Shown piece after piece: positions 1-61,562 of a DNA stretch of 64,000 bases. The position numbers and the translations under genes were made by a program. The stretch lies in assembly GCA_016187515.1 (NCBI GenBank), contig JACPJN010000007.1:140336-204335 (forward strand), read 5' to 3'. A model generated the notes under the pieces. That model was given only the letters and a program-made list of their open reading frames with translations, had not been told where the DNA came from and made no database searches. Positions within the stretch are counted from its first letter, which is position 1; each line of letters begins with the position of its first letter. Source of the stretch: Candidatus Uhrbacteria bacterium. GTDB lineage: Bacteria > Patescibacteriota > Patescibacteriia > GWA2-47-26.

Positions 1-446
1 CAGTGCTGACTGGGGCAAATTTCCAGATCAAAGACAAGCAGAAACCCGCACCCCGGCTGCGGACAGCGCACGGACGCTTGCTGGGGTTTTCCCAGATCCT
101 CAATGGAAGTTTCCAGCGGTTTTTGGTGGACAGGGCATCTCTCCAGCGTAGGAACAGCAAGCATTGCTTCCTCCTTGATTTGGCGGTTGACTGGGCCTGA
201 TTGGGTTAGGTAAAGAGCAAAACGAAATACCACCGGTACCTCCGGTGGCTTGCTGACAAGGTGAACTCTTGGAACTCCCTTGCTATGGTATCCTTACCAG
301 CTTAGCCACCGGAAATACGGAAATAAGCGTCGCTTTCACGTTAAGCGCGACGATCTTGCCGCAATTCTTAATGGCTTTCTGGTATGGCATACTTATGCAC
401 TTTATCACATCGCCACTTTCTTTGTCAAATCCAGGTGGGGATAAAC

Positions 447-1037
447 TTAAAATCCCAGCTCTTCCCCCACCCTCTTATATTCAAAAATCTCCGGATGCTT
501 GCCAAACCAATGCTTGATTTCATGCTCGGCTTCTTCCGGGGTCTCTGACACATGCAGTATGTTCTGCACCGCCCGTTTTTCTTTATTAGCTATCGCGGCA
601 GAATCACCTGAAAAATCGCCGCGAATCGTGCCCATCTCCGCAAGCACCGGCATGGTGTTCCCGGCAAGTTTGCGCACTACATCAATGGCGTGCGGACCTT
701 CAACTACGGCTTTAACCAGCGGGTAAGATACCATAAAATCAATAAGCCAGCCGCGCACCATTTTCCCAATCGCGAGTTTGTCCGCCGTGCCAAATTCTTT
801 GCGCGCATTGTAGCCGTACTTTTTATAGGTCAACAGGGTTTTTTCGCCAAGCCGCGCGATCCACTTTTCATCTTTGGGATAATGATCGTCAATCTGCTTA
901 CGCGTCGGCTTAAACATTTGCAGTGCGACAATTTTAAGTCGGCGCTGCTCAATGCGGGAGATTACCTCGCCAATCAGACCCTTGGCCACGCCGTCGGGTT
1001 TAATCAGCACGAATACGCGTTCTTGCTTATGGTTCAT
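447..1037 (-). CDS. ndk: nucleoside diphosphate kinase (long form with about 50-aa insertion)
   Basis: VFVLIKPDGV N-terminal motif, NILHVSE active-site His region and GDFSGD are NDK signatures. ORF 447..1064 trimmed to the MNHKQ start because the N-terminal extension overlaps the putative promoter. Confidence 0.82.
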   Translation of the reverse strand: MNHKQERVFVLIKPDGVAKGLIGEVISRIEQRRLKIVALQMFKPTRKQIDDHYPKDEKWIARLGEKTLLTYKKYGYNARKEFGTADKLAIGKMVRGWLIDFMVSYPLVKAVVEGPHAIDVVRKLAGNTMPVLAEMGTIRGDFSGDSAAIANKEKRAVQNILHVSETPEEAEHEIKHWFGKHPEIFEYKRVGEELGF

Positions 1038-1046
1038 ATGCCAAAT

Positions 1047-1075
1047 ACCATACCACACCCACAAGAACTTGACAA
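1047..1075 (-). promoter_or_regulatory. candidate sigma70-like promoter for ndk (TTGTCA, 17 nt, TATGGT), giving a near-leaderless mRNA
   Basis: Minus-strand -35 TTGTCA at 1075-1070, 17-nt spacer, -10 TATGGT at 1052-1047, then ATG at 1037-1035. Confidence 0.3.
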
Positions 1076-1099
1076 ATTCCGCCCACTATGATAGTGTAT

Positions 1100-1557
1100 A
1101 AACACGTAAGAAAGGACCGGCGCGGGTCCGCAAGGGCCTGGCTGGTCTAAGGGTTGTATGCGGAGGAGTCCGCCTGAACCTTCGCACAGTGGGGTAAAGA
1201 GACACTAAAAATCAACAGGTGGAATCAACAGATGGGTAAAATTGCCGTCTCACCCGGTCCTGTCGCGCGCAGGGCTGAAACCTCATACTTTCTTCGCACC
1301 TTCACCACAGTCGGGCATGGGAGTCATGGGTGTTGTCGGGTGGCAGCACACCTAGCGGGACTCCCGGAGAATGATTAGCAGTCACAATGCGCCTGACTGT
1401 GGCGCCACCTTTGTGGAACAGTTGTGGAAGCGGCGTAACCCCCTGGAGGAAGCATGCAGCACAAGGCCAGGGCCCAGCGTCCGTGCGCCACATCGTTGCA
1501 TTCCACATTCCCCCCCGAACCGTCACTGCGGCGCGGGGGGGGTTTTCTTTATTTTTT
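1100..1557 (+). ncRNA. candidate structured non-coding RNA, unclassified, in the ORF-free GC-rich gap between ndk and comEC-C
   Basis: About 450 bp with no credible ORF between two minus-strand genes. Multiple stable hairpins, e.g. GGACCGGCGCGGGTCC at 1114-1129 and GCGGAGGAGTCCGCC at 1160-1174, plus CCCTGG(N20)CCAGGG at 1441-1472. Plus-oriented intrinsic-terminator-like structure at the 3' end. Confidence 0.3.
1510..1557 (+). terminator. intrinsic-terminator-like hairpin (C7 / G8 stem) followed by TTTTCTTTATTTTTT on the plus strand
   Basis: CCCCCCC at 1510-1516 pairs with GGGGGGG at 1536-1542, then a T-run at 1543-1557. Plus strand only; on the minus strand an A-run precedes the hairpin. Overlaps the comEC-C stop codon. 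Confidence 0.4.
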
Positions 1558-2652
1558 CCGCTGCACGCGATATTGAAGCGCGGTTCCATCACTTTCAAAC
1601 ACCACATCCCCATCCTGATCATTTCTCAAAATCTCCACCCCTTGCTGTTTTAGTCGCCAGAGAGTTTGAAAATGCGGATGGCCAAAACGATTTTTGCGGC
1701 CGGATTGAATTACCGCATACTTTGGCGCCACCGCTTGCAAAAATTCTTTACTGGTTGAGGTTTTTGAGCCATGATGCCCGACTTTCAACACGTCTGAGCG
1801 CAGACGTGAGTCATCAGTTATCAGTTCACAGTTCACAGTTTTGTTTTGACACTTCCGTGAACCGTGAACCGACGACTGTGGACTAAGCAACGCGTCCTCC
1901 ACCCCTTCTTCCGCATCTCCGGTAAATAGAAAACTGGTTTTGCCATAAGTAAGTTTAGCCGCAATTGAGGTGGCGTTCAATCCTCCATCCGCTTCGCTTT
2001 TCTCGGCAATACGTTTTCCCGAAAGATCTTCTTGCGGCCAAAGAATTTCAAGTTTAGGTATTGGTATTTGTGATTCGTTTGGAAATTGGGAATTGTCTCC
2101 CTTTGGGAGATCTTCCGTAGGGAGAGAAATTGGAAATTCTTGGCTGGCTTTTGCGACCGCCATTGGGATCTCTCTATTCTTTATCTCTTTTAGCCACTCC
2201 AGATATTCGTCGGTGGTGTGCAGGACTCCGGTGGCCAATACCTGCTTCACGGTAAACCGTCGCAACACCTCAATTTGTCCCACGAGATGATCCGCGTGCG
2301 GATGGGTCAAAATCAGGAGTTCAATGGTCCGGTCCCAAAACGGTAAAGTGCGGCCCAATTTTTCCACCACCCGCGCGGATGGCCCGCCATCAATGAGTAC
2401 ATCAAATCCCTGCGCGGTACGCACATGAATCGCATCCCCCTGCCCCACATCATAAAAATGCACCGTAAGCGGCGCACCATCAGGGATGCCTTGAAACCAC
2501 AGCACGGAGGAAAGCGCGAAAATCCCCCAGACCCAGCGTGCCGCGGTACGATACTGGGGCGGTACCAGTGATCGGTACCCTTTGTAGATTGTCTGCTTCA
2601 GATCCGCCGCCGCTTCAGTTAATCGGGTTAAGCGAACTGCCGTTTTGAGCAT
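1549..2652 (-). CDS. comEC: ComEC/Rec2-family metallo-beta-lactamase domain protein (standalone C-terminal module of the competence channel) with N-terminal TM helix
   Basis: HFYDVGQGDAIHV, LILTHPHADHLVG and KVGHHGSKTS motifs of the ComEC C-terminal MBL domain. TM helix RWVWGIFALSSVLWF. Confidence 0.8.
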   Translation of the reverse strand: MLKTAVRLTRLTEAAADLKQTIYKGYRSLVPPQYRTAARWVWGIFALSSVLWFQGIPDGAPLTVHFYDVGQGDAIHVRTAQGFDVLIDGGPSARVVEKLGRTLPFWDRTIELLILTHPHADHLVGQIEVLRRFTVKQVLATGVLHTTDEYLEWLKEIKNREIPMAVAKASQEFPISLPTEDLPKGDNSQFPNESQIPIPKLEILWPQEDLSGKRIAEKSEADGGLNATSIAAKLTYGKTSFLFTGDAEEGVEDALLSPQSSVHGSRKCQNKTVNCELITDDSRLRSDVLKVGHHGSKTSTSKEFLQAVAPKYAVIQSGRKNRFGHPHFQTLWRLKQQGVEILRNDQDGDVVFESDGTALQYRVQRKK

Positions 2653-2671
2653 AAGAAAGTTTATTATCCCG

Positions 2672-2703
2672 GATCTATTATAAGCGATCGCTTATAATAG
2701 ATC
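2672..2703. promoter_or_regulatory. 32-bp perfect palindrome GATCTATTATAAGCGATCGCTTATAATAGATC (operator/promoter-like; TATAAT on both strands), 20 bp upstream of the comEC-C start
   Basis: Self-complementary over all 32 bp. Core GCGATCGC. Near-identical to the palindrome at 3350-3379. Confidence 0.55.
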
Positions 2704-2734
2704 TTATTCAGTATCGGCTTTTGAATTGCTACTG

Positions 2735-3337
2735 TTAAATCTTGAGCTTGCGCAAAAAACGTACGCTGCATTTTTTACAATCCACCTCTAAAACCTCGAA
2801 GAAACGCTCCAATCCGATATATTTCAACAATTCATCAATGCTGGGACGCGGATCACAGCGTGAAATCCAGATACTCCGCTGCAGCATGATAAATCCCCCC
2901 TGCTTTAGTAGCCGCCGAAAAAATTCCCGATGCGCCCGCTTGGATTCCGGCACATCATACATCGCCAGCCACAGTCGGCCATCGCGTTTTTTCTGATCGG
3001 GATTGCGCATCTGCATGAGAAACTGCAGTCGGAGAACTTCATACTTACCCTTGGCAGTTAGTTTGACAAGCTGCCGCTCGCCTTCTTTCACGGTTTCAAT
3101 ATAATGCTGATCCTTCAGATGCTTAATGCGCTGCCGCAGCCAATCGCGGTCGCGTAGGCGCCGCCGACGCTCTCGTTCACGGTAACCCCCCAGTCCTATC
3201 GCACTTTGACCGCGGCGCACATAACCCGGGATGTGGATAGAATCGGGGTTCATGTTGGCGGCCTGTAATTCCAGCAACGCAATCTGAAATTCCATTAATT
3301 CTAGGCGTATACTCATATCCTTCTGATTGTACCACAT
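2735..3337 (-). CDS. winged-helix + Cas2-like (PaaX-like) small protein; putative transcriptional regulator
   Basis: C-terminal segment RLWLAMYDVPESKRAHREFFRRLLKQGGFIMLQRSIWISRCD matches the Cas2 beta1-alpha1 pattern (xxVxxYDV..KR..k..kxLxxyGxrxQxSvf.c). N-terminal part has a wHTH-like pattern. The longer ORF (to 3463) reads through the palindrome and the comEC-N 3' end, so a start at M43 (3337) or M50 (3316) is preferred. Confidence 0.5.
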   Translation of the reverse strand: MWYNQKDMSIRLELMEFQIALLELQAANMNPDSIHIPGYVRRGQSAIGLGGYRERERRRRLRDRDWLRQRIKHLKDQHYIETVKEGERQLVKLTAKGKYEVLRLQFLMQMRNPDQKKRDGRLWLAMYDVPESKRAHREFFRRLLKQGGFIMLQRSIWISRCDPRPSIDELLKYIGLERFFEVLEVDCKKCSVRFLRKLKI

Positions 3338-3349
3338 TAACTGCGCGGG

Positions 3350-3379
3350 AGCTATAATAAGCGATCGCTTATTATAGCT
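3350..3379. promoter_or_regulatory. 30-bp perfect palindrome AGCTATAATAAGCGATCGCTTATTATAGCT (twin of 2672-2703), overlapping the comEC-N stop codon and 13-42 bp upstream of the Cas2-like gene
   Basis: Perfectly self-complementary. Differs from the first palindrome only by a TTA/TAA swap in the arms. TATAAT present on both strands. Confidence 0.55.
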
Positions 3380-4916
3380 CCGATTCCTCTGACTGAATAA
3401 GCGGCGATTTTTGCTGCGGATTTTCCTGACGTTTCCATTGCCGCATTGTCCAGACGATCGCACAAAATAAAACTACGGCGGATAAAAAAGAAAGACGAAT
3501 TTGAAAAACGCCAAATTGGGCCAGCCACTCCGCGATACGCACGATGTATTGAAGCGGCACGCGCGCGACCAGGGCAATCCCCAAGCCGAAAGGACGCCAG
3601 AGGAAATCCGCAACTACGGAGAGGAATCCCAGCGCCATCACCGCCGGAACCATGGGCACCACCAGAATATTAGCGAACAGCGAAAAGGGGCCCAAAATGC
3701 CGGTGTGATAGAGCAAAAGCGGAGTGGTAAACAGCAGGGCCGCCACTGAAGCCGCGCCAGCTTTGCGAATTTCCCAGACCTCGGGAAGCTTGCGCACCAG
3801 AGTACGCCGCGCAATATCATCAGCAAAATATATCAGCGCGATGGTGGCGACAAAAGAAAGCAAAAATCCTAAATCAAAACGCAGCAGCCGAGGATTAACG
3901 GCCAGCATTATCACGCCGGCCAGCGCGAGAGCATTGCGCGGATGGCGCGCGCGGCCAACTCCCTGCGCCAGAGAAACCAGCGAGCCCATAATCGCGGCGC
4001 GCACCACCGAGGATTCCGCGCCCGTGGCCAGCACAAAGACCAAAATCAAAAGCAGAGTTACGGGCAAGGCCTGTTTACGAGTCAGCCCCACATACACCAA
4101 GCCCCCCACCAGCACCCAAGAAATAATGGTGATGTTATAGCCGGAAAGCGCGGTGATATGGGCCAGACCAGTGGCGCGGAAGGCCTCTTTCAGCTCGCGC
4201 GTTAGACCAGAAGTATCGCCATAAAGAATTCCCGCCAGCAGTCCCCCGTAGGGATCGGGGAAAAGAGATTGCAGGCGAGAGTGGAAAATTTCACGGATTT
4301 GATAAAGTACGCCTCTCACCCCGCTCATCTCCTTAAGTAGCGCGGGGGCTAGTCCCCCGCTTGGCGGCACATTAAATGCCGCGCTACGCATCACAGAAAC
4401 ATGTTCCGGAAACGCGCAGGAAACATGAACTCCTTCGCGCACCGCCCAACGTTCATAGAAGGAGAGCGGCTGGGGTGCGCATTTAATAAAAAGTTCATCG
4501 CCAAAACGATACTCCGGGTATGTTGGCGCGTTAAGCAGCAGCTTACCGCTGGGGGCGGACAGTTGGAGGATATAGGCCGTGTTTTTTTCTCGCTTCCGGG
4601 GCGGACTATCCACTAAGCCGCGAACGGATATTTCCTGTCCAACATAGTAGGCAATATGCCGGGCGTTAATAACCGGTATAACTTGCGCGAAACGAAAAAC
4701 GCCAAGAAAAAATATTCCCAGCGCCAAGATCCCAATGACGGTTAATCGGGAACCCCCGAAGCTAAAACCGAGCGCGGATAAAACGCCACAGCCAATAAAT
4801 AAGGCGTACCAGATAAACGGCGGAGTAATCAGCCGATCCGCGGCGATCAAGGAGTGCAGTCCAATGCCGGCGATAAACGCGCAGCAAAAAGCAAAAAATG
4901 CCTTGGATTTGGTCAT
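3372..4916 (-). CDS. comEC: ComEC/Rec2 competence protein, polytopic membrane channel module (DUF4131 + competence domain)
   Basis: Many TM helices and a TALSGYNITIIS-type competence-domain motif. The start is placed at MTKSKAFFAF. The ORF's upstream extension overlaps the CGAAT repeat region. Confidence 0.75.
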   Translation of the reverse strand: MTKSKAFFAFCCAFIAGIGLHSLIAADRLITPPFIWYALFIGCGVLSALGFSFGGSRLTVIGILALGIFFLGVFRFAQVIPVINARHIAYYVGQEISVRGLVDSPPRKREKNTAYILQLSAPSGKLLLNAPTYPEYRFGDELFIKCAPQPLSFYERWAVREGVHVSCAFPEHVSVMRSAAFNVPPSGGLAPALLKEMSGVRGVLYQIREIFHSRLQSLFPDPYGGLLAGILYGDTSGLTRELKEAFRATGLAHITALSGYNITIISWVLVGGLVYVGLTRKQALPVTLLLILVFVLATGAESSVVRAAIMGSLVSLAQGVGRARHPRNALALAGVIMLAVNPRLLRFDLGFLLSFVATIALIYFADDIARRTLVRKLPEVWEIRKAGAASVAALLFTTPLLLYHTGILGPFSLFANILVVPMVPAVMALGFLSVVADFLWRPFGLGIALVARVPLQYIVRIAEWLAQFGVFQIRLSFLSAVVLFCAIVWTMRQWKRQENPQQKSPLIQSEESEL

Positions 4917-4921
4917 GGGGT

Positions 4922-4968
4922 GCGAATTGCGAATCAAACCCGAATTTACGAATCTGCGAATTCGAAAT
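4922..4968. promoter_or_regulatory. cluster of six CGAAT direct repeats (GCGAATTGCGAATC...CCGAAT...ACGAAT...GCGAAT...CGAAAT) immediately upstream of comEC-N
   Basis: Repeats at 4923, 4930, 4941, 4949, 4957 and 4963. The 14-mer GCGAATTGCGAATC recurs as ACGAATTACGAATC at 31752-31765. Confidence 0.4.
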
Positions 4969-5053
4969 TCGCAAATTCTCCGCCCAAGGCGCTGTGCCCG
5001 CCTTGGGCTGGGGATCCGCCTCGGGCGGAGAACCTCATTCGTTATTCGCACCC

Positions 5054-11051: not shown

Positions 11052-11861
11052 TCAAATGCCGCCGGTTTTAAGCCCTAGCGCAACTATCCAGTAACCGGCG
11101 CGGCCAATCCATTCGTGAAGTGCGGCGAGCGAAGCGCTAAACGCGTCAATGGAGGGAAGCCATTGCAATGGACTTAAAAAAACTGGCTGGGTAACTCGGA
11201 AATCCGCCGGTATTGGCAAAACTTTGATATTGTGCCGCTCCATTACCGAAACGGCGCGCGGCAAATGCGTAGCCGAGGTGACGAGCACAATCGTGTGTTG
11301 CGCCGCCTTCGGGAACCGTTCATCAAGCATGCGGCGCACATAAATTCCGCTTTCGGCGGTCGTGCGGGCCTCAACTTCAGTCCAAAAATCATCCTGGGGA
11401 ATACCCATGGAAACCGCATACTGCTTCGCCAGTCCCGGCTCGCCCGCATATTGATCAAACGGATCTCCGGAAATACCGCTGTATATGATCGGCATTTTTT
11501 TATCGAGCTGGCGATAGATTTCCAGGCCGCGCCAGAGCCGCCGCCAGCTTATTCCGGAAAGTTCGGCAAAGGGCTTGTCTTTACCGGACTGATCAGCCCC
11601 GCCGGCCAAAATCACAATCGCCTCGGCTCCGCCGGTCTCCGGAGACGGCGCCGCAAGATACTGCTGATCCAAACTGCGCGTCAGGAAATATGCCGCTGGC
11701 AAAGTGGACAGCAAATAATAAACGGCGAGGGTCGCGCCAAGGATAAGCTTACCGGCGCGCGTTCTTTTTTTAAGAATCAAAATTAAACTGGCGAGCATCC
11801 CCAGGGCAATAAGCGTCGGCGGCAGAAAAAACGGTTTAATGACTTTTAGGATGGTAAACAT
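11052..11861 (-). CDS. DUF218 (YdcF/ElyC/SanA-like) membrane-anchored protein
   Basis: N-terminal TM helices plus the AIVILAGG motif characteristic of DUF218. Confidence 0.6.
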   Translation of the reverse strand: MFTILKVIKPFFLPPTLIALGMLASLILILKKRTRAGKLILGATLAVYYLLSTLPAAYFLTRSLDQQYLAAPSPETGGAEAIVILAGGADQSGKDKPFAELSGISWRRLWRGLEIYRQLDKKMPIIYSGISGDPFDQYAGEPGLAKQYAVSMGIPQDDFWTEVEARTTAESGIYVRRMLDERFPKAAQHTIVLVTSATHLPRAVSVMERHNIKVLPIPADFRVTQPVFLSPLQWLPSIDAFSASLAALHEWIGRAGYWIVALGLKTGGI

Positions 11862-17441: not shown

Positions 17442-17454
17442 ATCAATCCAATCT

Positions 17455-17486
17455 CCTCCCCTTAAAGTAAGGGGAGCTAAGAGGGG
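17455..17486. repeat. CTCCCC-GGGGAG palindromic element copy c (CTCCCCTTA AAG TAAGGGGAG), intergenic
   Basis: Perfect 9-bp arms. Confidence 0.6.
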
Positions 17487-17564
17487 TTATGAGTGTAGTG
17501 ATCATAACAAAAATCGACTCACCCGGCAAGAACCCGCCTTTAGCAGCGCCGCTCATACCTCGGG

Positions 17565-21590: not shown

Positions 21591-22430
21591 TCAAGTCCAG
21601 GAAAGCATTGCCCGCACTGGCAGATGATCGGAAACGTCTACCTCCGGCGCATCAATGGACTCCACGCGAAAATGCGGCGAGGTGTAGATAAAGTCCACCA
21701 ATCGCCCGGCGCCGAGAACCTCCGCGGCGCGGTGCGTGCGAAGATTAAGGGTATTGTTGATGCCCGAACCATAGCAGGTATTACTCGCCGCCTTATCAAG
21801 AATCCGTATCACTTCCGAACCCGGCTCCATATTAAAATCACCGCCCAGTATAAATGGCTCATCGCCAAGTCCCCGCAGATACTCCGCGAGCAGGCGTGCC
21901 TGACGAATTTTTTCCGGCGTATCAACTGGAGCTTTGGTCCAAGCGCCATGAGTGGAAAGTATATGGAAAATACCCTCTCCCACCCCCTCTTCTCCCACCA
22001 CCCCCCGCCCCTCCTCTGGCAGGAGGGGAGACCCCCCTCGGGCAGGGGGAGAAAAACGCACGATTACGTCCAGCGCATTGCGCGGCATTTCCGGCCCGTC
22101 TTTTTCCCAAAGCAAATCCGAATAATCACGATATGCTTTTAACTGAACCGTATTACTGGCTAGGATTTTACCGCGAGCAAGCACCGCGTTACTTTCATAC
22201 GAAGATGAGTCGCCAATCAAACGAAACATCGGGGCTACAACCCCTTCAAGACCCAAGGCACTCCTAAGGTGCTGAAAAATATCCATACGCTGATCAGCCC
22301 AAAAGTTAACCCGCCCGCCAGAAACCTCCTGCATGGTAATGATATCCGGCTGCTCGCCGCGCAAAAACGAAATCAACTTATCCAAGAATTTACCGTGATA
22401 GATATTGATCTGAATGACTTTCAACCGCAT
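21591..22430 (-). CDS. endonuclease/exonuclease/phosphatase (EEP) family protein
   Basis: GDFNM and SDHLPV EEP motifs. Carries an in-frame G/P/E-rich insert from a palindromic element. Confidence 0.7.
   Translation of the reverse strand: MRLKVIQINIYHGKFLDKLISFLRGEQPDIITMQEVSGGRVNFWADQRMDIFQHLRSALGLEGVVAPMFRLIGDSSSYESNAVLARGKILASNTVQLKAYRDYSDLLWEKDGPEMPRNALDVIVRFSPPARGGSPLLPEEGRGVVGEEGVGEGIFHILSTHGAWTKAPVDTPEKIRQARLLAEYLRGLGDEPFILGGDFNMEPGSEVIRILDKAASNTCYGSGINNTLNLRTHRAAEVLGAGRLVDFIYTSPHFRVESIDAPEVDVSDHLPVRAMLSWT
21974..22054. repeat. composite CTCCCC-GGGGAG palindromic element copy d, in-frame inside the EEP CDS
   Basis: CCCCTCCT CTGGC AGGAGGGG at 22008-22028 and CCCCCCTC GGGCA GGGGGAG at 22032-22051. 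Confidence 0.6.
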
Positions 22431-31789: not shown

Positions 31790-31868
31790 CCCCCTCTAAC
31801 TCCCCCTCCGGGAGGGGGAGAAATCGATTTTCCTCCCCTGCCCGAGGGGAGGTTAGGAGGGGTGGGAG
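31790..31868. repeat. composite CTCCCC-GGGGAG palindromic element copy e (nested perfect palindromes), overlapping the last codons and stop of the RmlD-like gene
   Basis: CTCCCCCT CCGG AGGGGGAG at 31801-31820 and CCTCCCCT GCCCG AGGGGAGG at 31832-31852, with outer CCCTCTAAC / GTTAGGAGGG arms. Confidence 0.65.
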
Positions 31869-32665
31869 AACTTTTTTAATTCCTCCACCGCTTCCTCCAT
31901 CGTCCTTCCATACGGAAACAACTTCTTCAACCCTTCATACTTCGTCGTAAGCACTCTCTCTACCGAACCACGATGATCTTCCATCCGTTCCACATTTACA
32001 TTTTTTTCAAACACCTTTTTAAACAGGCACAGTAAATCATATTTCGTAATCGGTTCATTAGGCGTGAAATGAAAAACTGACGCCTCAGCGCGCAAGTCCT
32101 CAAACCGGTCTTCGCGGATTATCTTCTCACAAAGCTGGGCAAATTGCAAGGTGGTTACGCCATTCCAGATATGGTTGGTAAAACCCTGCACAGTGGCACC
32201 CTCCGGCTGGGACAAAAACCACTCCAGAAGCCCTTTTTTCTTATTTGGACTGGGGCCAATGATGGAGGTGCGAATATTGATTACATTGGGCGCTTCAACC
32301 TCTCCCTTAATCTTACTTTTTCCGTACGCATCTTCAGCATCACACGGCGAATCTTCATCATATGGACCACTCTTGCCGGAAAACACTCCGTCGGTAGACA
32401 TGTGAATGATCCTTGCGCTAGTTGCCTTTGCTAGCCAATGTGGAAACTCTGCGTTCACTTTTTTCATCTTTTCTTCTTCACCGCCAGCCAATACGCCAAT
32501 GCAGTTGATCACATAATCGTAGTCATGCGTATCCGGGACATCATTTGCGGCATCAAAATCACTCGCATTCATTCCCTTCACCTTCCATGCTTTTTCCTGC
32601 GCCAACACCTTAAGCACCATGTGCCCGAGCATTCCGGTACTGCCGAGGACAAGAATTTTTTTCAT
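31853..32665 (-). CDS. NAD(P)-dependent sugar-nucleotide reductase (RmlD-like, dTDP-4-dehydrorhamnose reductase family)
   Basis: ILVLGSTGMLG N-terminus and RmlD-like fold pattern. Start trimmed to MKKILV. Confidence 0.55.
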   Translation of the reverse strand: MKKILVLGSTGMLGHMVLKVLAQEKAWKVKGMNASDFDAANDVPDTHDYDYVINCIGVLAGGEEEKMKKVNAEFPHWLAKATSARIIHMSTDGVFSGKSGPYDEDSPCDAEDAYGKSKIKGEVEAPNVINIRTSIIGPSPNKKKGLLEWFLSQPEGATVQGFTNHIWNGVTTLQFAQLCEKIIREDRFEDLRAEASVFHFTPNEPITKYDLLCLFKKVFEKNVNVERMEDHRGSVERVLTTKYEGLKKLFPYGRTMEEAVEELKKFSHPS

Positions 32666-34756: not shown

Positions 34757-35989
34757 TTAACTATTATACACATCTGTAAATAATTGTACAAGGGTAACGG
34801 CGGTGTCCTCCAGCTTATACTTTTTTACCTGTTCTTTACCGCGGACAATCAATTGCGCGCGCGCTGGAGCATCCGCAAGGACACGCGCAATGCATGTTGC
34901 CATATCCTCCGGATCAAACGGATTAAAGTATACTGCGGCATCGCCGCAAATTTCCCGAAAAGGATTAAAACACTTTCCGCGATACGCGGGATCAAGATCG
35001 CAATCAGCGGCGGCAATAGACACACCGGCCGCCATTGCCTCCAGAAGCGGTATGCCAAAGGTTTCCTCCAGTGAGGGGAAGACAAATGCATCAGCGTGGT
35101 TGAAATAGGTACCGACATCGCGATGCGGCACCTCATCCTTGAATACCACTTTTGAACCGAGTCCAAGCTCGTGAACAAGCGCATCAAGCGCTCCCCGCCA
35201 TGTGTGAGATCCTGTGTTGCCCACCACCATCAAATCGCCGCCATACCCATATCGCGTTACGAGGATGGAAAACGCCTTGAGCAATCGTACAGTATTACGA
35301 TGCGGGCCATTGGCGCCGATCGTGAGGATGTAGGGATTCCCCCTCCTGCCCGAGAATTTCCCCCCCTGCCCGAGGGGGGGCTCGGGGGGGTGGGAGGGGG
35401 TGATGGAAACCATTCCCACAAGACCCCTCCTAACCTCCCCTTCAAAAGGGGAGGAAATATTCGCAACCCCGTGCGGAATCACCTCGCACTTTTTAGAATC
35501 CACTCCGAGTCGCGGCACAATCAAATCGCGAGAATTTCGAGACACAAATCGAATTTTTGTTGCTCGCCGCGCCGACAACCATCCTAAAGACCGCAACAGC
35601 CCTAACCGCACTTGTTCCTTGCGCGACCACGGAAGTTTAAGCCGCGAATATGGATTGGCGTTCTCCATTAAAAGCGCGACTTTACACGGGGCCAAGATGC
35701 AAGTAGTGTTTCCAACTGAATAAAGCACATCTACTTTATGCCACGCTAAATAAACAGGAAATATCAATTGCTCCCACAACACACGCGCAAACGGATTGCG
35801 CGGAACATACGCAATTTCCACTTTTTCAAACTGTCCCGGAATCACGAGAGCAAACGCGCGCTGGCGCGCGGAATAAAAGACGATATATGAATTTTTCTGA
35901 TCCGTCCGGGCAAGTTCCGGTAAAAGTTTTTGCATCTGGCTTATACCGGCGCCGGTTTGCGCGCTCAAGGCATTGATGCCAATTTTCAT
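34757..35989 (-). CDS. GT4 family glycosyltransferase
   Basis: GT-B, Glycos_transf_1-like C-terminus. In-frame palindromic insert (HPPEPPLGQGGKFSGRRGNP). Confidence 0.72.
   Translation of the reverse strand: MKIGINALSAQTGAGISQMQKLLPELARTDQKNSYIVFYSARQRAFALVIPGQFEKVEIAYVPRNPFARVLWEQLIFPVYLAWHKVDVLYSVGNTTCILAPCKVALLMENANPYSRLKLPWSRKEQVRLGLLRSLGWLSARRATKIRFVSRNSRDLIVPRLGVDSKKCEVIPHGVANISSPFEGEVRRGLVGMVSITPSHPPEPPLGQGGKFSGRRGNPYILTIGANGPHRNTVRLLKAFSILVTRYGYGGDLMVVGNTGSHTWRGALDALVHELGLGSKVVFKDEVPHRDVGTYFNHADAFVFPSLEETFGIPLLEAMAAGVSIAAADCDLDPAYRGKCFNPFREICGDAAVYFNPFDPEDMATCIARVLADAPARAQLIVRGKEQVKKYKLEDTAVTLVQLFTDVYNS
35338..35456. repeat. composite CTCCCC-GGGGAG palindromic element copy g (three sub-palindromes), in-frame inside the GT4 CDS
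   Basis: CCCCCCCTGCCCGAGGGGGGG CTCGGGGGGG at 35361-35390 and CCTCCCCTT CAAA AGGGGAGG at 35435-35455. Confidence 0.6.
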
Positions 35990-37605
35990 AGTCCGTCAGC
36001 TATTCGCTCGTAGAGGAAAAATGCGCCGTCTGAATGCAGCAGTTGCCATTGTTTAGGGCTATTCATAACTTTCGGTATTTCCGGAACAACCTTAAAGACC
36101 ACCGGACTTTCTGGCGGTAAACCATTATGCGTAATATCCAGCAACACATATTCAGCGCGCACTAACCCATCCTCGGATTGCAGCCGCGGAAATACCATAG
36201 CGCCTTTTTTCTTAAACAGCCGAGGCACGAGAAATTCATTCGCCGACACTACCGCATCATCGGGAATCATTCGTACGAATCGCTCCGCATTGCGCTGGTG
36301 GTTATTCACTAGATACACTGACCAGTGGAAATCTTGGGTTCGAAATGGCGCCGGGCGCAAATCCTTAAACCAGAATTGCAGAGAGATCGGCGACGGCCCA
36401 AACCAGATGTTTGAGAGTAAGACACCGGCAAGGACCGCGCACATGAATGGTGTCTGTGTTTGTACCCTCACCCCAACCCTCTCCCAAAGGGAGAGGGAGA
36501 TCAAACGAGGCCAGGCTTTAATAAACGCATAAAAAATAAAAGGAATAGCCGGCGAAATATAATATAACATATATGAGTTATGCAGCGGAGAAACGCTGAT
36601 AAGCCCAATGCCAATCGCGGCCAGCGTCCCTAAAAGCGCGCCAGACGCCAAAAATGGGATCAGCAGAAGCGGTACAAACAACATGAGCACATTGGCAAAC
36701 TTTTGTACGGACAGTATGGTTGTCAGGGCGCGAGCCGGATGGGTAAGAATATTTATGGAAATCTCCGATAAGCTACTGCCCCACTGATTGAGGGATCCCG
36801 CCGCCACCTGATGCGCAAACGAATCCAAAGTATTAAACGCTGGCATAACTGCGCTGACGATAATAAAAAACATGGCCAGACCAAAAATCGCGGTAATAAT
36901 CCCGAGGCGCTTTTGTTTCCTAAATAACCAAGCATACAGACCGAACATCAAGATGGTCAGGCCAACCTCCTCGCGCGCCAGTGCGGCGGCCAACACCAAG
37001 ACCGCATAAAGCACGGTGCGCCTGGTCTCAAAAAGATAAAGCATCCAGAACAGTATTGGAATACTGAAACGCAGCATTTCAAATTCATAAAGCGTAATGT
37101 ACTGAAAGCTGGGATACCAGAGAAATGCAACTGCAACGACACGCGCAAACAAACGGTCTTTGGAAAAGTGCAGCGCGAGTTTGTAGAGCGGTATGATCGC
37201 GGAAAACATCAAAAGAAAGTTTAATACAAAAATAGTTTCCGCGCGGGGTAACAGTTTAAATGGCAGAGCGAAAAAATAAATGAAGGGCACAAAATGCGCG
37301 GCAAAATAATTGCCGAAATCAGGATCAGAAAACGCCGAATTGGGGCTTAGCGGTATTCCGGCAATTCCGAGGTTATACAGCACCTGCAGCCAATGTGAAA
37401 CATCCGCGTACATGTGCAACGAAGAATACTTTAAAATCTCCGCGGCCGGGATATATAAAACCAAACCGAAAAGTATCGCCAGCGCGATATAAAACCAACG
37501 GTTTATTAGCGCACTGAAGCGTGCGGATAAAAAATAAACCAGCGCACTCCCGCCAAATATCACTGCGACTCCGACAATGTAGAACGTCATCAATCGTGAG
37601 TCCAT
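35986..37605 (-). CDS. large polytopic membrane protein, putative GT-C-like glycosyltransferase (DUF2079-like)
   Basis: More than 12 TM helices. In-frame palindromic insert (SLSLWERVGVRV). Confidence 0.4.
   Translation of the reverse strand: MDSRLMTFYIVGVAVIFGGSALVYFLSARFSALINRWFYIALAILFGLVLYIPAAEILKYSSLHMYADVSHWLQVLYNLGIAGIPLSPNSAFSDPDFGNYFAAHFVPFIYFFALPFKLLPRAETIFVLNFLLMFSAIIPLYKLALHFSKDRLFARVVAVAFLWYPSFQYITLYEFEMLRFSIPILFWMLYLFETRRTVLYAVLVLAAALAREEVGLTILMFGLYAWLFRKQKRLGIITAIFGLAMFFIIVSAVMPAFNTLDSFAHQVAAGSLNQWGSSLSEISINILTHPARALTTILSVQKFANVLMLFVPLLLIPFLASGALLGTLAAIGIGLISVSPLHNSYMLYYISPAIPFIFYAFIKAWPRLISLSLWERVGVRVQTQTPFMCAVLAGVLLSNIWFGPSPISLQFWFKDLRPAPFRTQDFHWSVYLVNNHQRNAERFVRMIPDDAVVSANEFLVPRLFKKKGAMVFPRLQSEDGLVRAEYVLLDITHNGLPPESPVVFKVVPEIPKVMNSPKQWQLLHSDGAFFLYERIADGL
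36465..36500. repeat. CTCCCC-GGGGAG palindromic element copy h (CCCTCTCCC AAA GGGAGAGGG), in-frame inside the membrane-protein CDS
   Basis: Perfect 9-bp arms. Confidence 0.6.
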
Positions 37606-48550: not shown

Positions 48551-50367
48551 GGGAGATTCGCCTTACAATAAACTTTCGTCGTCAGAGAAGGTATCATAAC
48601 ACCGTAGGCGGGGCATGTCCAATCCGAAATCGTCTCAGGTGCCCCAGTGGAATGCCGGCTATATATTCCTTCAATGCCTGGAGCAAAATGAAAAAAAGTT
48701 TCAACCGCATGAGCGCGCGCGCCATATAATTCGTCTTCTACCTCGAACGCAGGACGATTGCACTGAACTTTGAAGCGGCGTGTGTGCTTAATCATATCGC
48801 CTTGGATCCGAAGAAAACCAGTATGGCTGATTGAAAACACGAATTGATCGCCGATCTTTTGCCACTGCGCGAACACATTACGCTTCTGATAAAACGCCGG
48901 AAACTTCTGCGCACGGTCATAAAGAAATGGACCCAAACTATCTATAGTAAGTGATGTATGTGCCGAAGCTCCGCCGCTATAGATATACAAAGGGTCGCTT
49001 GCTTTATAGGTTGGCCTTCCTGGGTCAATAACTACCGGCACCCCGGAAGCAAAAAATACAAAAGAGCACACATCTGCATGACCATGCGATGCGCGGTGAA
49101 TCATGCATGCTTGCGGGATGTGCCAAAAAAGCGTATGAACACCATGGTTCAAACGAAACCAGCCGCTTTCCGGAAACGCTTGCCACCCTCCCCTAGCCCC
49201 TCCCACAAGTGGAGGGGGATTTCCATTTACTACCTCTCCCTTTATGGGAGAGGGTTGGGGTGAGGGTGATCCTATCAAAGGCATCAGATAGTGGATCAAC
49301 CACTCCGGCGTACAATCCGGCGATACATCCCCGATAAGCGGTATCTGCCAGTGTCCATCTGTATCCTCCACCAGAAAAAACCAACACCGCTCTGCAAGTT
49401 TTTTAACCCATGGCGCAAGACACATCTCCATTTCCTGATGCCCTGTTTCCTGCGCAAGTTCATACATCTCCAATATCCAGCGGGTAAAAAGTAAATGATA
49501 ATGGCTTGACTCTTCGCGCAAAAATCCATCCTCGGTTACAAGCCATGGCAATGCGTCTTTAACAATAGCAAATGCCAAATCTGATAACTCTTTTGCCTTA
49601 AGCATTTGTCCGGCAAAAAATAGCGCGCGTGCGTTATTAACCACATGATTGCCGGTTCCGCGCGTTCCGTGGTATTCCAAATGCCGTGCCACATGGTATG
49701 CCATCTCTAACAGTGCCGCACTAATATCTTTCGGGGTCTCCGATCTCTGTTGCGCAAAAAACAACAACGCATTTACCATTCGCTCCCCTGTGGTATACGT
49801 TGTCCCGGAAATCCCTTCCGGAACCGGCCTCATTGCCGAAAGCCAAGAACGCATCAACGTAACACCTTGCTCATTGTCCATCTCATCGTAGATTAGCCAA
49901 TGCCAGCGGTGGAGCGACATGGTCTGCTCCGGATCGTCAAATTGTGTGTGCCAGTTCGGTTCACCATCGTACTCGAGAAATCCGGTGGCGAGTTTAAGGC
50001 GACCGCACGCGATACCGTCATTCTGAGGAATCGGAGATGACGAAGAATCCCGTGGGTACGTGGACGGGATCCTTCGTTGTCGCTCAGGATGACGAATTAT
50101 AGAATTAAACGCCCTCCGCACCTCTTTCGGATAATTCCACACCGGCGGAGTATAACGATATTGCAATGAAAACAAACCACGACGCACGAAAAAAAGTAAA
50201 GTCCGCGCGCAAAAAATCGGATTCACACAACGCCATAGTAAATTGCGGACTTCATTGGTCATACAGCTTTTGTAACGGCATGCCGGTCTGCAAAGAAACG
50301 GTAAGTCGTTGATACACATCGGCAACCTGTGCATAATCAAACTCTCACAACGCATTCTTAAGTTCAT
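48520..50367 (-). CDS. heparinase II/III-like domain protein (start probably internal)
   Basis: SHGHADVCSF motif of the Hepar_II_III family. In-frame insert SPSPQPSPIKGEVVNGNPPPLVGGARGG from a palindromic element. Confidence 0.5.
   Translation of the reverse strand: MNLRMRCESLIMHRLPMCINDLPFLCRPACRYKSCMTNEVRNLLWRCVNPIFCARTLLFFVRRGLFSLQYRYTPPVWNYPKEVRRAFNSIIRHPERQRRIPSTYPRDSSSSPIPQNDGIACGRLKLATGFLEYDGEPNWHTQFDDPEQTMSLHRWHWLIYDEMDNEQGVTLMRSWLSAMRPVPEGISGTTYTTGERMVNALLFFAQQRSETPKDISAALLEMAYHVARHLEYHGTRGTGNHVVNNARALFFAGQMLKAKELSDLAFAIVKDALPWLVTEDGFLREESSHYHLLFTRWILEMYELAQETGHQEMEMCLAPWVKKLAERCWFFLVEDTDGHWQIPLIGDVSPDCTPEWLIHYLMPLIGSPSPQPSPIKGEVVNGNPPPLVGGARGGWQAFPESGWFRLNHGVHTLFWHIPQACMIHRASHGHADVCSFVFFASGVPVVIDPGRPTYKASDPLYIYSGGASAHTSLTIDSLGPFLYDRAQKFPAFYQKRNVFAQWQKIGDQFVFSISHTGFLRIQGDMIKHTRRFKVQCNRPAFEVEDELYGARAHAVETFFHFAPGIEGIYSRHSTGAPETISDWTCPAYGVMIPSLTTKVYCKANLPCTMTHHFSW
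49186..49270. repeat. composite CTCCCC-GGGGAG palindromic element copy i, in-frame inside the heparinase-like CDS
   Basis: CCCCTCCCAC AAGT GGAGGGGG at 49197-49218 and CTCTCCCTTTATGGGAGAGGG at 49234-49254. Confidence 0.6.
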
Positions 50368-61065: not shown

Positions 61066-61542
61066 ATGGCTAATGCACGGCATCATCCTTATCTGGAGTA
61101 CCTATTGATCAAACTTCCTTGGTTTGAAAAATTCCCCACCCACTTTATTTTTTTCGCATTTTTCGGAGGGATTGCGACTGCAGTGGATTGGAGCGTATTC
61201 TATGTAACTCATCTGCGGCTTGGCTGGCACTATCTTCAAAGCGTGACCTTGACCTTCATTTTGGGCACACTGATAAGTTTTTCCGGCAATAAGTATCTTA
61301 ATTTCCAAGATTCCTCAAAAAAAATAATCCGTCAATATGTAATATTTGCCTCTTTGGCGGCAGTAGGTCTACTGATCACTTACGGACTGCTTACAATATT
61401 TATTGAGTATCTGCACTTGCACGCGATGGTCGCTCGCGCCATTTCAACCTTCATCGTGCTTTTCTACAACTACTTTTCGCAAAAACACATTACTTTCAAT
61501 AAACGATTCACTCATAACCCCTCCCCCCTCCCCTTACCTTAA
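61066..61542 (+). CDS. gtrA: GtrA-family membrane protein (polyprenol-linked sugar translocase-like)
   Basis: 4 TM helices with GtrA-like pattern. C-terminal PSPLPLP tail and stop come from a palindromic element. Confidence 0.6.
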   Translation: MANARHHPYLEYLLIKLPWFEKFPTHFIFFAFFGGIATAVDWSVFYVTHLRLGWHYLQSVTLTFILGTLISFSGNKYLNFQDSSKKIIRQYVIFASLAAVGLLITYGLLTIFIEYLHLHAMVARAISTFIVLFYNYFSQKHITFNKRFTHNPSPLPLP

Positions 61543-61550
61543 GGGGAGGA
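61517..61550. repeat. CTCCCC-GGGGAG palindromic element copy j (CCTCCCCTTA CCT TAAGGGGAGG), supplies the last codons and stop of gtrA
   Basis: Perfect 10-bp arms. Confidence 0.6.
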
Positions 61551-61562
61551 GAATGATGGAGT

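What the first reader, a model, noticed from the sequence alone, without database searches (positions are those of the whole stretch)
1100..1557. Roughly 450-bp ORF-free, hairpin-rich region with a plus-strand intrinsic terminator: candidate novel structured ncRNA
Genes elsewhere in this locus are tightly packed, with 0-60-bp spacers, yet ndk and comEC-C are separated by about 480 bp with no credible ORF. The region is GC-rich and holds several perfect stem-loops.

It ends in a C7/G8 hairpin followed by TTTTCTTTATTTTTT, oriented on the plus strand. That is opposite to both flanking genes, implying an independently transcribed antisense-oriented RNA of about 400-450 nt.

Short resemblances to RNase P and SRP motifs were examined and do not hold up. 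The order and spacing are wrong for RNase P, and the SRP domain IV match is incomplete.
Basis: partly seen in the sequence, partly recalled or inferred. Interest (0 to 1): 0.5.

Follow-up and report, generated by a model that had tools for sequence, protein, structure and literature searches.

The report
Orphan non-coding RNA gene candidate
A roughly 0.5-kb non-coding insertion between two housekeeping genes of an uncultured Uhrbacteria (CPR) bacterium has its own promoter-like site and the strongest terminator in the window, so it is probably made into a ~450-nt RNA, but it matches nothing known and is absent from every relative, so its function cannot be tested by comparison.

Summary
Positions 1038-1548 are non-coding, between ndk (447-1037, -) and the MBL-fold C-terminal ComEC gene (1549-2652, -). 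The median intergenic gap in the window is 8 bp.

Signals for a discrete + strand transcript of about 450 nt (~1104-1552):
- The C7/G8 hairpin plus T-tract (1509-1557, +) is the strongest terminator-like structure in 64 kb (-26.4 kcal/mol).
- About 440 nt upstream, on the same strand, lies TTGACA-N14-TGn-TAGTGT (1069-1097). That signature occurs 5 times in the window against 0.22 expected. The other four sites all face a gene or another terminated transcript.

What it is not:
- No Rfam family matches, including RNase P, tmRNA, SRP and 6S.
- ARAGORN finds nothing.
- No frame shows coding signal, a Pfam domain or a homologue.

Limits:
- Relatives have only 50-100 bp between these two genes, so this is a lineage-specific insertion.
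- Scans of viral contigs, metagenome contigs, phage and plasmid records and billions of proteins found no homologue, so covariation cannot be tested.
- The + strand folding z-score of -3.4 is matched (z <= -3) by 5 of 40 control windows, so "hairpin-rich" is weak evidence.

Verdict: a plausible orphan ncRNA gene of unknown function. A vestigial insertion is not excluded. Interest is modest.

The parts
1069..1097 (+). Candidate sigma-70-type promoter of the RNA. The -35 is TTGACA (1069-1074). A 17-nt spacer ends in the extended -10 TG (1089-1090). The -10 is TAGTGT (1092-1097). Predicted start is about 1102-1106.
   Evidence: The signature TTGWCA-N13-15-TGnTAnnnT occurs 5 times on both strands of the 64 kb against 0.22 in shuffles. 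The other 4 sites all lie in intergenic DNA and face a gene or another terminated transcript. The stricter generic scan did not list it, because the -10 matches only 3 of 6.
1104..1552 (+). Predicted non-coding transcript of about 450 nt, 58.8% G+C. The ends are inferred from the promoter and terminator, not measured.
   Evidence: There is no coding signal in any frame and no Rfam family.
1114..1148 (+). 5' hairpin of 15 pairs with a GCAA tetraloop (1130-1133). Read on the - strand, the same hairpin is followed by CUUUCUU and could end comEC-C transcripts just ahead of the ndk promoter.
   Evidence: Pair probability is 0.98-1.00. The inner part is flagged as a terminator-like site on the - strand. 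Relative L006 has a terminator followed by a promoter in the equivalent gap.
1210..1235 (+). Tandem 13-nt motif AATCAACAG(G/A)TGG, two copies, in the least-paired, A-rich part of the RNA. A related motif ACAG(T/A)GGGGTAAA occurs at 1186 and 1228.
   Evidence: Function unknown. With only two copies, chance or a recent duplication is not excluded.
1255..1277 (+). Hairpin of 9 pairs (CGGUCCUGU / GCAGGGCUG).
   Evidence: Pair probability 0.98.
1305..1402 (+). Best-defined domain. A 12-pair closing helix (1305-1316 with 1391-1402) encloses a 7-pair helix and an apical hairpin.
   Evidence: Pair probabilities are 0.96-1.00. It also appears as inverted repeat I4, 92% complementary.
1413..1506 (+). 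3' domain, an interrupted long hairpin. Two TTGTGGAA copies (1411 and 1422) and GTGGAAT (1219) compete for a single TTCCAC (1501-1506).
   Evidence: (D7, I3). The alternative long-range pairing 1219-1234 with 1491-1506 is possible but untested.
1509..1557 (+). Intrinsic terminator. A C7/G8 stem with an inner 4-pair stem is followed by TTTTCTTTATTTTTT. The T-tract overlaps the last codons (RKK) and the stop codon of comEC-C on the other strand.
   Evidence: Energy is -26.4 kcal/mol, the strongest of 43 sites in the window. Pair probability is 0.94-0.96. The RKK tail is unique to this genome's ComEC-C.
1047..1075 (-). ndk promoter, TTGTCA-17-(TGg)TATGGT. Its -35 occupies the same 7 bp as the -35 of the + strand promoter, in a back-to-back arrangement. 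The predicted start is about 3 nt before the ndk ATG (1037).

Best explanation
The gap holds a separate, lineage-specific gene for a non-coding RNA of about 450 nt on the + strand.

Proposed sequence of events:
1. RNA polymerase starts at about 1104 from a promoter with a perfect -35, an extended -10 TG and a TAnnnT -10.
2. The transcript begins with a stable GCAA-capped hairpin. This would protect the 5' end (inferred).
3. It folds into two or three further hairpin domains.
4. It is released at a very strong intrinsic terminator, which also stops antisense transcription from entering comEC-C.

No + strand gene follows, so it cannot be a leader or riboswitch. The most likely role is a free-standing RNA, either a regulator or a protein-binding RNA.

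A likely side effect is competition with ndk transcription, because the two back-to-back promoters share one -35 site.

Shown: the region is non-coding, the promoter and terminator signals exist, the element is an insertion relative to relatives, and it lacks any family match. Inferred: transcription itself, the ends, the fold and any function.
For: - The terminator is the strongest in the window and is + oriented.
- The promoter signature is highly specific in this genome: 5 sites against 0.22 expected, and the other 4 are all correctly placed in front of genes or an RNA.
- Given the shared -35, a TGnTAnnnT at a permitted spacing has a chance of roughly 3 in 1000. This figure is my own estimate from 5 fixed bases at 3 spacings.
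- No coding signal or protein homologue exists in any frame.
- G+C is 10 points above the window average.
- The + strand folds better than shuffles (z = -3.4), while the - strand does not (z = -0.5).
- The genome is compact, with a median gap of 8 bp. A gap upstream of ndk as long as this one (484 bp or more) occurs in only 1 of 77 relatives, whose median is 56 bp.
Against: - There is no homologue anywhere, so no covariation or conservation test is possible.
- Relatives at 76% Ndk identity or about 60% ComEC-C identity lack the element.
- The folding z-score and the strand asymmetry fall within the range of control windows.
- The + strand -35 is largely a by-product of the near-palindromic ndk -35 (TTGTCAA / TTGACAA), and the -10 hexamer matches only 3 of 6.
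- No expression data are available.
Confidence: 0.5

Rival explanations
1. Vestigial insertion. The 0.45 kb would be the decayed remnant of acquired DNA, such as an orphan gene or a mobile-element fragment, that kept its terminator. Any + strand transcription would be incidental and the RNA would have no function.
For: - The element is absent from all relatives and has no homologue anywhere.
- The same operon carries other lineage-specific insertions: a PaaX-like ORF bounded by 34-nt palindromes between the two comEC genes.
- Higher G+C could equally indicate foreign origin.
- The folding statistics are not exceptional.
Against: - No trace of a coding frame remains.
- There are no terminal inverted repeats or target duplication and no second copy in the window.
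- The genome is very compact, so useless DNA should be short-lived.
- The promoter-like site is positioned and oriented to match the terminator.
Confidence: 0.3
2. - strand element. The region would be a long 3' UTR of comEC-C, or an upstream regulatory region of ndk, transcribed with the flanking genes. The 1114-1148 hairpin would be the real comEC-C terminator.
For: - On the - strand, hairpin 1148..1114 is followed by CUUUCUU and sits just ahead of the ndk promoter, as the terminator does in relative L006.
- No T-tract terminator follows the comEC-C stop on the - strand.
Against: - The - strand fold is no better than shuffles (z = -0.5).
- The ndk promoter is proximal (1075..1047), so the region is not in the ndk leader.
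- This reading does not explain the very strong + oriented terminator.
- Relatives manage with 50-100 bp.
Confidence: 0.1
3. A very divergent copy of a universal RNA (RNase P RNA, tmRNA, SRP RNA or 6S RNA) that falls below Rfam's detection.
For: - The size, G+C content and stand-alone promoter/terminator layout fit RNase P RNA or tmRNA.
- Some CPR genomes carry RNase P RNAs that were found only after lowering the RF00010 threshold to about 5 bits (PMC8172020, read).
- Short resemblances exist, such as GGAGGAGUCCGCC to the P4 5' strand and GUAACCCCCUGGAG...CAAGGCC (comparison from my own memory of the E. coli sequence).
Against: - No RNase P, tmRNA, SRP or 6S match appears at E <= 10 when only 463-751 nt are searched with lax filters.
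- ARAGORN finds no tmRNA.
- The only partner for GUCCGCC lies 45 nt downstream (1216-1223), not near the 3' end. The P4 long-range helix, the defining feature of RNase P, therefore cannot form.
- A universal RNA should have detectable relatives, and none were found.
Confidence: 0.04
4. A small protein gene, for example the 48-aa ORF at 1232-1378 on the + strand, which has AGGUGG 9 nt before its ATG.
For: It has an SD-like motif and an ATG. One metagenome gene caller called it (L002).
Against: - Its codon-usage score is -0.08, below every gene in the window.
- It finds only itself among 1.84 billion representative proteins.
- It has no Pfam hit.
- A 170-nt untranslated tail would separate it from the terminator.
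- Most genes here lack SD motifs.
Confidence: 0.03

Closest known systems
Unclassified long, G+C-rich intergenic regions, as flagged by GC-IGR screens for structured ncRNAs (Breaker laboratory; PMC6429828 and PMC8632094, seen as titles and abstracts)
   Same: It is a long intergenic region with G+C well above the genome average in a compact genome. It has no ORF and has its own terminator. This is exactly the kind of region those screens single out.
   Different: Those screens validate candidates by covariation across homologues. Here there are no homologues at all, so the candidate stays at the 'unnamed/orphan' level.
Bacterial RNase P RNA, class A (Rfam RF00010), including the divergent CPR forms described in PMC8172020
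   Same: Similar length (about 350-450 nt), high G+C, a stand-alone gene with promoter and terminator, a hairpin followed by a GGAGGAGUCC-like stretch, and a CPR host.
   Different: There is no CM match. No long-range P4 helix can form and there is no ACAGAA...GGCUUA element near the 3' end. It is absent from relatives, whereas RNase P RNA is universal.
Orphan, species-restricted sRNAs with a sigma-70 promoter and an intrinsic terminator, the common class in cultured bacteria (general knowledge)
   Same: It is a discrete promoter-to-terminator unit lying between, and opposite to, protein genes. It is lineage-restricted and has a 5' hairpin.
   Different: At about 450 nt it is several times longer than typical base-pairing sRNAs. 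No target, chaperone or expression data exist.
Large protein-binding RNAs such as 6S/Ms1 or CsrB-type sponges
   Same: Size range of 180-450 nt, multi-hairpin architecture and short repeated motifs.
   Different: There is no 6S match in Rfam. By my own count from the sequence, there are about 11 GGA motifs against about 9 expected from composition, so no enrichment. The repeats have only two copies.

Membership tests
Bacterial RNase P RNA (class A/B) | Match to the covariance models RF00010/RF00011 | tested here: not met
   There are no hits at the gathering score and none at E <= 10 on 751-nt and 463-nt slices. Scores below roughly 12 bits would not be listed, so an extremely divergent form is not formally excluded.
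Bacterial RNase P RNA (class A/B) | Long-range P4 helix joining the GGAAAGUCC region near the 5' end to an ACAGAA-N-CCGGCUUA region near the 3' end | tested here: not met
   The only complement of GUCCGCC (1168-1174) is CAGGUGGA at 1216-1223, 45 nt away. Nothing suitable lies between 1480 and 1510.
tmRNA | tRNA-like acceptor/T-arm domain plus a tag-peptide reading frame | tested here: not met
   ARAGORN finds 0 genes in the whole window. There is no Rfam tmRNA match.
SRP RNA (small or large bacterial) | Domain IV (helix 8) motif recognised by RF00169/RF01854 | tested here: not met
   No match at E <= 10. The GGAGGAAGCA...CAAGG stretch at 1446-1466 lacks the GGAA-capped helix.
6S RNA | A rod of about 180 nt with a central bubble; match to RF00013 | tested here: not met
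   No match. The length, about 450 nt, and the multi-domain fold do not fit. 6S models are known to be insensitive, so this is a weak exclusion.
TIGR array (tigRNA precursor) | Regular array of 36-nt dual-spacer units next to a Nop-domain Tas gene (PMC12045711) | tested here: not met
   The only tandem repeat is 2 copies of a 13-nt unit. Neighbouring genes are ndk, comEC, a PaaX-like gene, GT2, fn3 and PIN, with no Nop or Tas gene.
Miniature transposable element (MITE) / IS remnant | Terminal inverted repeats, target-site duplication and multiple copies | tested here: not met
   There are no terminal inverted repeats at the ends of the gap. There is no other copy in the 64 kb or in other collections. 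The rest of the genome could not be searched.
Intrinsic (factor-independent) terminator | G+C-rich hairpin immediately followed by a U-tract on the transcribed strand | tested here: met
   At 1509-1542 there are 9+4 pairs at -26.4 kcal/mol, followed by UUUUCUUUAUUUUUU.
Sigma-70-type promoter with extended -10 | TTGACA-like -35, a 16-18-nt spacer, TGn, and TAnnnT | tested here: met
   The site is at 1069-1097. The signature is enriched more than 20-fold in the window, and the other four sites are correctly placed. Activity was not tested.
Conserved structured ncRNA family (any) | Homologues with compensatory base changes | tested here: inconclusive
   No homologue could be retrieved, so no alignment exists to test.

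The most novel reading that the evidence does not exclude
This would be a genuinely functional, newly acquired or newly arisen large (about 450 nt) structured RNA, confined to one Uhrbacteria lineage. It would be expressed from a promoter that shares its -35 with ndk. It would act as a free-standing regulator or protein-binding RNA and couple its own synthesis to ndk/comEC expression through promoter competition and convergent transcription.
Probability: 0.2. Interest if true: 0.45.

Novelty: new member of a known kind. Interest (0 to 1): 0.3.

Why it matters
Almost nothing is known about non-coding RNAs in CPR/Patescibacteria. Their genomes are so compact that a 0.5-kb non-coding unit with its own promoter and terminator stands out. 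If it is expressed and functional, it would be an example of a large RNA gene gained recently by a streamlined, host-dependent bacterium. Because it is an orphan, nothing general can yet be learned from it. Its value is mainly as a target for metatranscriptome mapping.

Tried and rejected
1. Known RNA families. Rfam was run at gathering score on the whole window and at E <= 10 on three slices. It returned only noise: SNORD48, SNORA57 and an rnk-leader match that is just the terminator.
2. tRNA and tmRNA. ARAGORN found none.
3. Synteny in relatives.
   - 80 ndk loci from GTDB species genomes and 3 contigs encoding ComEC-C relatives were checked.
   - The two closest ndk loci and the three ComEC-C contigs have the two genes 50-170 bp apart; across 77 ndk loci the median gap upstream of ndk is 56 bp.
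   - blastn and nhmmer found no copy.
   - One relative (L058) has a 786-bp gap upstream of ndk, but in a different context, without similarity and without Rfam hits.
4. Spurious-ORF trick. Stop-free frames of the region were searched as proteins against 5.8 billion proteins and 1.84 billion representatives. Only the region's own ORF calls came back.
5. Back-translated degenerate DNA scans at 12 sites, using + and - frames, were run on IMG/VR and twice on JGI metagenome contigs. No relative was found.
6. Two motif scans of IMG/VR with the tandem motifs gave 120+ hits each. None had extended similarity.
7. Phage and plasmid blastn gave nothing.
8. A decayed gene was tested with Pfam and homologue searches across the stop-free frames, with negative results.
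9. oriC or DnaA-box cluster. The TGTGGAA motifs resemble DnaA boxes only loosely. Cumulative GC skew falls steadily across the first 6 kb with no reversal at the gap, and the neighbouring genes on both sides lie on the - strand.
10. TIGR array was rejected.
11. CsrB-like sponge. GGA motifs are not enriched (my own count).
12. Folding z-score as evidence of structure. It was downgraded after control windows gave similar values.
13. One long control run timed out.

Full report
**Source and setting.**
- The window comes from a Candidatus Uhrbacteria (CPR/Patescibacteria) metagenome-assembled genome. The ComEC-C protein is 100% identical to an NCBI Uhrbacteria entry.
- The same DNA occurs, base for base over the region, on four Logan contigs fetched from runs SRR12113384, SRR12113390, SRR12113401 and SRR12113428; the look-up lists one of these contigs in 9 samples.
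  - ndk at 447-1037 (-), Pfam NDK;
  - a separate MBL-fold C-terminal ComEC gene at 1549-2652 (-);
  - the membrane 'Competence' part at 3372-5051 (-).
- The wider order fn3 - GT2 - comEC-N - comEC-C - ndk is shared with a relative.

- The stretch 1038-1548 has no coding potential. All ORFs in it score 0.08 or less per codon on the window's codon usage. The 45 long ORFs taken as genes score 0.05-0.375, and ndk, scored separately, 0.44.
- The ten longest stop-free stretches of the six frames have no Pfam match and no homologue beyond their own gene calls.
- With a median intergenic gap of 8 bp, this is the largest non-coding gap in the 64 kb.
- Its G+C is 58.8% against 48.4% for the window.
- The C7/G8 hairpin and T-tract are at 1509-1557 on the + strand. 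A scan of my own, allowing long loops, ranks it first of 43 terminator-like sites in the window at -26.4 kcal/mol. The runner-up is -21.2.
- On the - strand the hairpin is followed by AAUGUGG, with no U-tract.

**How far 'hairpin-rich' goes.**
- The + strand of 1095-1560 folds at -194 kcal/mol (z = -3.37). The - strand gives z = -0.50.
- I folded twenty other 450-nt pieces of the window on both strands. Five of the 40 folds reached z <= -3.0, and strand differences of two or more z units were seen several times.
- At the 150-nt scale only 1101-1250 stands out (z = -3.1).
- The fold is therefore compatible with a structured + strand RNA but does not demonstrate one.
- The best-defined elements, with pair probability of 0.94 or more, are:
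  - the 5' hairpin 1114-1148 with a GCAA loop;
  - the hairpin 1255-1277;
  - the domain 1305-1402;
  - the core of the domain 1413-1506;
  - the terminator.

- At 1069-1097 the + strand reads TTGACA, then 14 nt, TGa, TAGTGT.
- The signature TTGWCA-N13-15-TGnTAnnnT occurs five times on both strands of the window, against 0.22 in shuffles.
- The other four sites all lie in intergenic DNA pointing at a gene or an RNA:
  - the ndk promoter (1075..1047);
  - a promoter just downstream of ndk (428..399);
  - sites at 11055 and 18829.
- This is therefore a reliable promoter mark in this genome.
- Caveats:
  - The -35 is shared, in opposite orientation, with the ndk promoter, because TTGTCAA is nearly its own reverse complement. 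Only the TGnTAnnnT part is independent evidence, roughly 3 in 1000 by my estimate.
  - The -10 hexamer itself is weak, which is why the stricter generic scan missed it.
- Promoter and terminator together define a unit of about 450 nt (~1104-1552), with no ORF and no downstream + strand gene.

**It is an insertion, and an orphan.**
- In the two closest species-level genomes (Ndk 76% identical) and in three contigs encoding ComEC-C relatives (58-61% identical in the search, 62-65% in the alignment), comEC-C and ndk are 50-170 bp apart. That short gap holds only a terminator and/or the ndk promoter.
- Across 77 ndk loci the median upstream gap is 56 bp. Only one gap is as long as this one (484 bp or more), and it is unrelated.
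- No sequence similar to 1065-1560 was found in any of these:
  - the 80 ndk loci;
  - phage or plasmid records;
  - IMG/VR or JGI metagenome contigs, scanned at 12 sites with codon-style degenerate patterns;
  - 240 viral loci retrieved with the internal tandem motifs;
  - elsewhere in the window.
- The nearest relative in the protein databases is already about 60% identical for ComEC-C, so no close sister genomes exist to compare. Covariation analysis is impossible at present.

**What it is not.**
- Rfam 15 gives no match at gathering thresholds over the whole window. At E <= 10 on short slices it gives nothing but noise.
- ARAGORN finds no tmRNA.
- RNase P was given special attention.
  - CPR genomes are reported to carry divergent RNase P RNAs that fall below default Rfam thresholds (PMC8172020), so this option needed a closer look.
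  - The hairpin followed by GGAGGAGUCCGCC resembles P3 plus the P4 5' strand.
  - However, the only complement of that strand lies 45 nt downstream rather than near the 3' end.
  - No ACAGAA...GGCUUA element exists, and the CM does not score it.
  - I give this option about 4%.
- TIGR arrays, MITEs, an origin of replication, a CsrB-type sponge, a decayed gene and a small protein were each considered and rejected. Details are in the 'tried and rejected' section and the membership table.

**Mechanism, with its status.**
- Shown:
  - the DNA is non-coding;
  - it has a + promoter signature and a + terminator;
  - it is an insertion relative to relatives;
  - it matches no known family.
- Inferred:
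  - a discrete RNA of about 450 nt is made, starting with a protective hairpin and ending at the terminator;
  - the terminator also shields comEC-C from antisense transcription, since its T-tract overlaps the last three codons and the stop, and the RKK tail is unique to this genome.
- Because nothing lies downstream on the + strand, the RNA would act on its own rather than as a leader.
- The shared -35 implies that polymerase binding for the RNA and for ndk is mutually exclusive. + strand transcription would also oppose any read-through from comEC-C. Both points are inference.
- The same 5' hairpin, read on the - strand, looks like a modest terminator in front of the ndk promoter. It may be the ancestral comEC-C terminator.

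**Alternatives.**
- The main rival is that the element is a vestige of acquired DNA with a fossil terminator (about 30%).
  - The locus has other lineage-specific insertions.
  - Lack of conservation is what junk would show.
  - Against it: the genome is compact, no coding remnant survives, and the promoter and terminator match in position and orientation.
- A - strand UTR role (about 10%) does not explain the + terminator.

**Verdict.** This is a real and well-delimited feature, most likely an orphan ncRNA gene. Its function is unknown and it cannot be verified by comparison today. It is a new member of a familiar kind (lineage-restricted bacterial ncRNA candidates), not a new kind of system. 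Interest is 0.3.

Noticed in passing
window 220-428 (- strand): A second orphan promoter-to-terminator unit lies just downstream of ndk. Its promoter is TTGACA-N18(TGa)-TAAAGT at 428..399. The RNA is about 170 nt and folds with z = -4.8. A clean terminator (GCCACCGG-AGGTA-CCGGTGG plus a T-run) sits at 249..220, about 55 nt before the start of a 112-aa ORF with no Pfam match. It looks like a leader or riboswitch-type element, or an sRNA. Rfam gives no match and relatives show no similarity.
   Followed up: partly
window 2670-3463: An extra gene for a PaaX-like regulator (winged helix plus a Cas2-like PaaX_M domain, 1.1e-13) sits between the two halves of comEC. It is bounded by two near-identical 34-nt palindromes, GGATCTATTATAAGCGATCGCTTATAATAGATC, at 2670-2703 and 3349-3382. 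In relative L085 the two comEC genes are adjacent. This is a second lineage-specific insertion in the same operon.
   Followed up: partly
window ~1790-1900 (inside comEC-C, - strand): A long hairpin on the mRNA strand (z = -8.8 for 1751-1900) is built from TCAGTTCACAGTTCACAG and CCGTGAACCGTGAACCGA. It encodes a variable protein insert, SPQSSVHGSRKCQNKTVNCEL..., which is present in some relatives (P0002, P0009) and absent in others (P0005, P0006).
   Followed up: partly
window 1035-1075 and gene starts throughout: The ndk promoter places the predicted transcription start about 3 nt from the ATG, so the mRNA would be leaderless. Many genes in the window have TATAAT-like hexamers within about 10 nt of the start codon and lack Shine-Dalgarno motifs.
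   Followed up: no
window 17449-17495, 22028-22058, 31825-31868, 35354-35457, 36464-36495, 49236-49267, 61509-61555: A dispersed family of 25-47-nt palindromic repeats rich in CCCCTC/GGGGAGG (for example TTTCCTCCCCTGCCCGAGGGGAGG). The copy at 31828-31881 also scores as a terminator-like site.
   Followed up: no
L058 3215-4000: One marine Patescibacteria relative has a 786-bp ORF-poor gap between a UvrD-like helicase gene and ndk. It has no similarity to this element and no Rfam match.
   Followed up: partly
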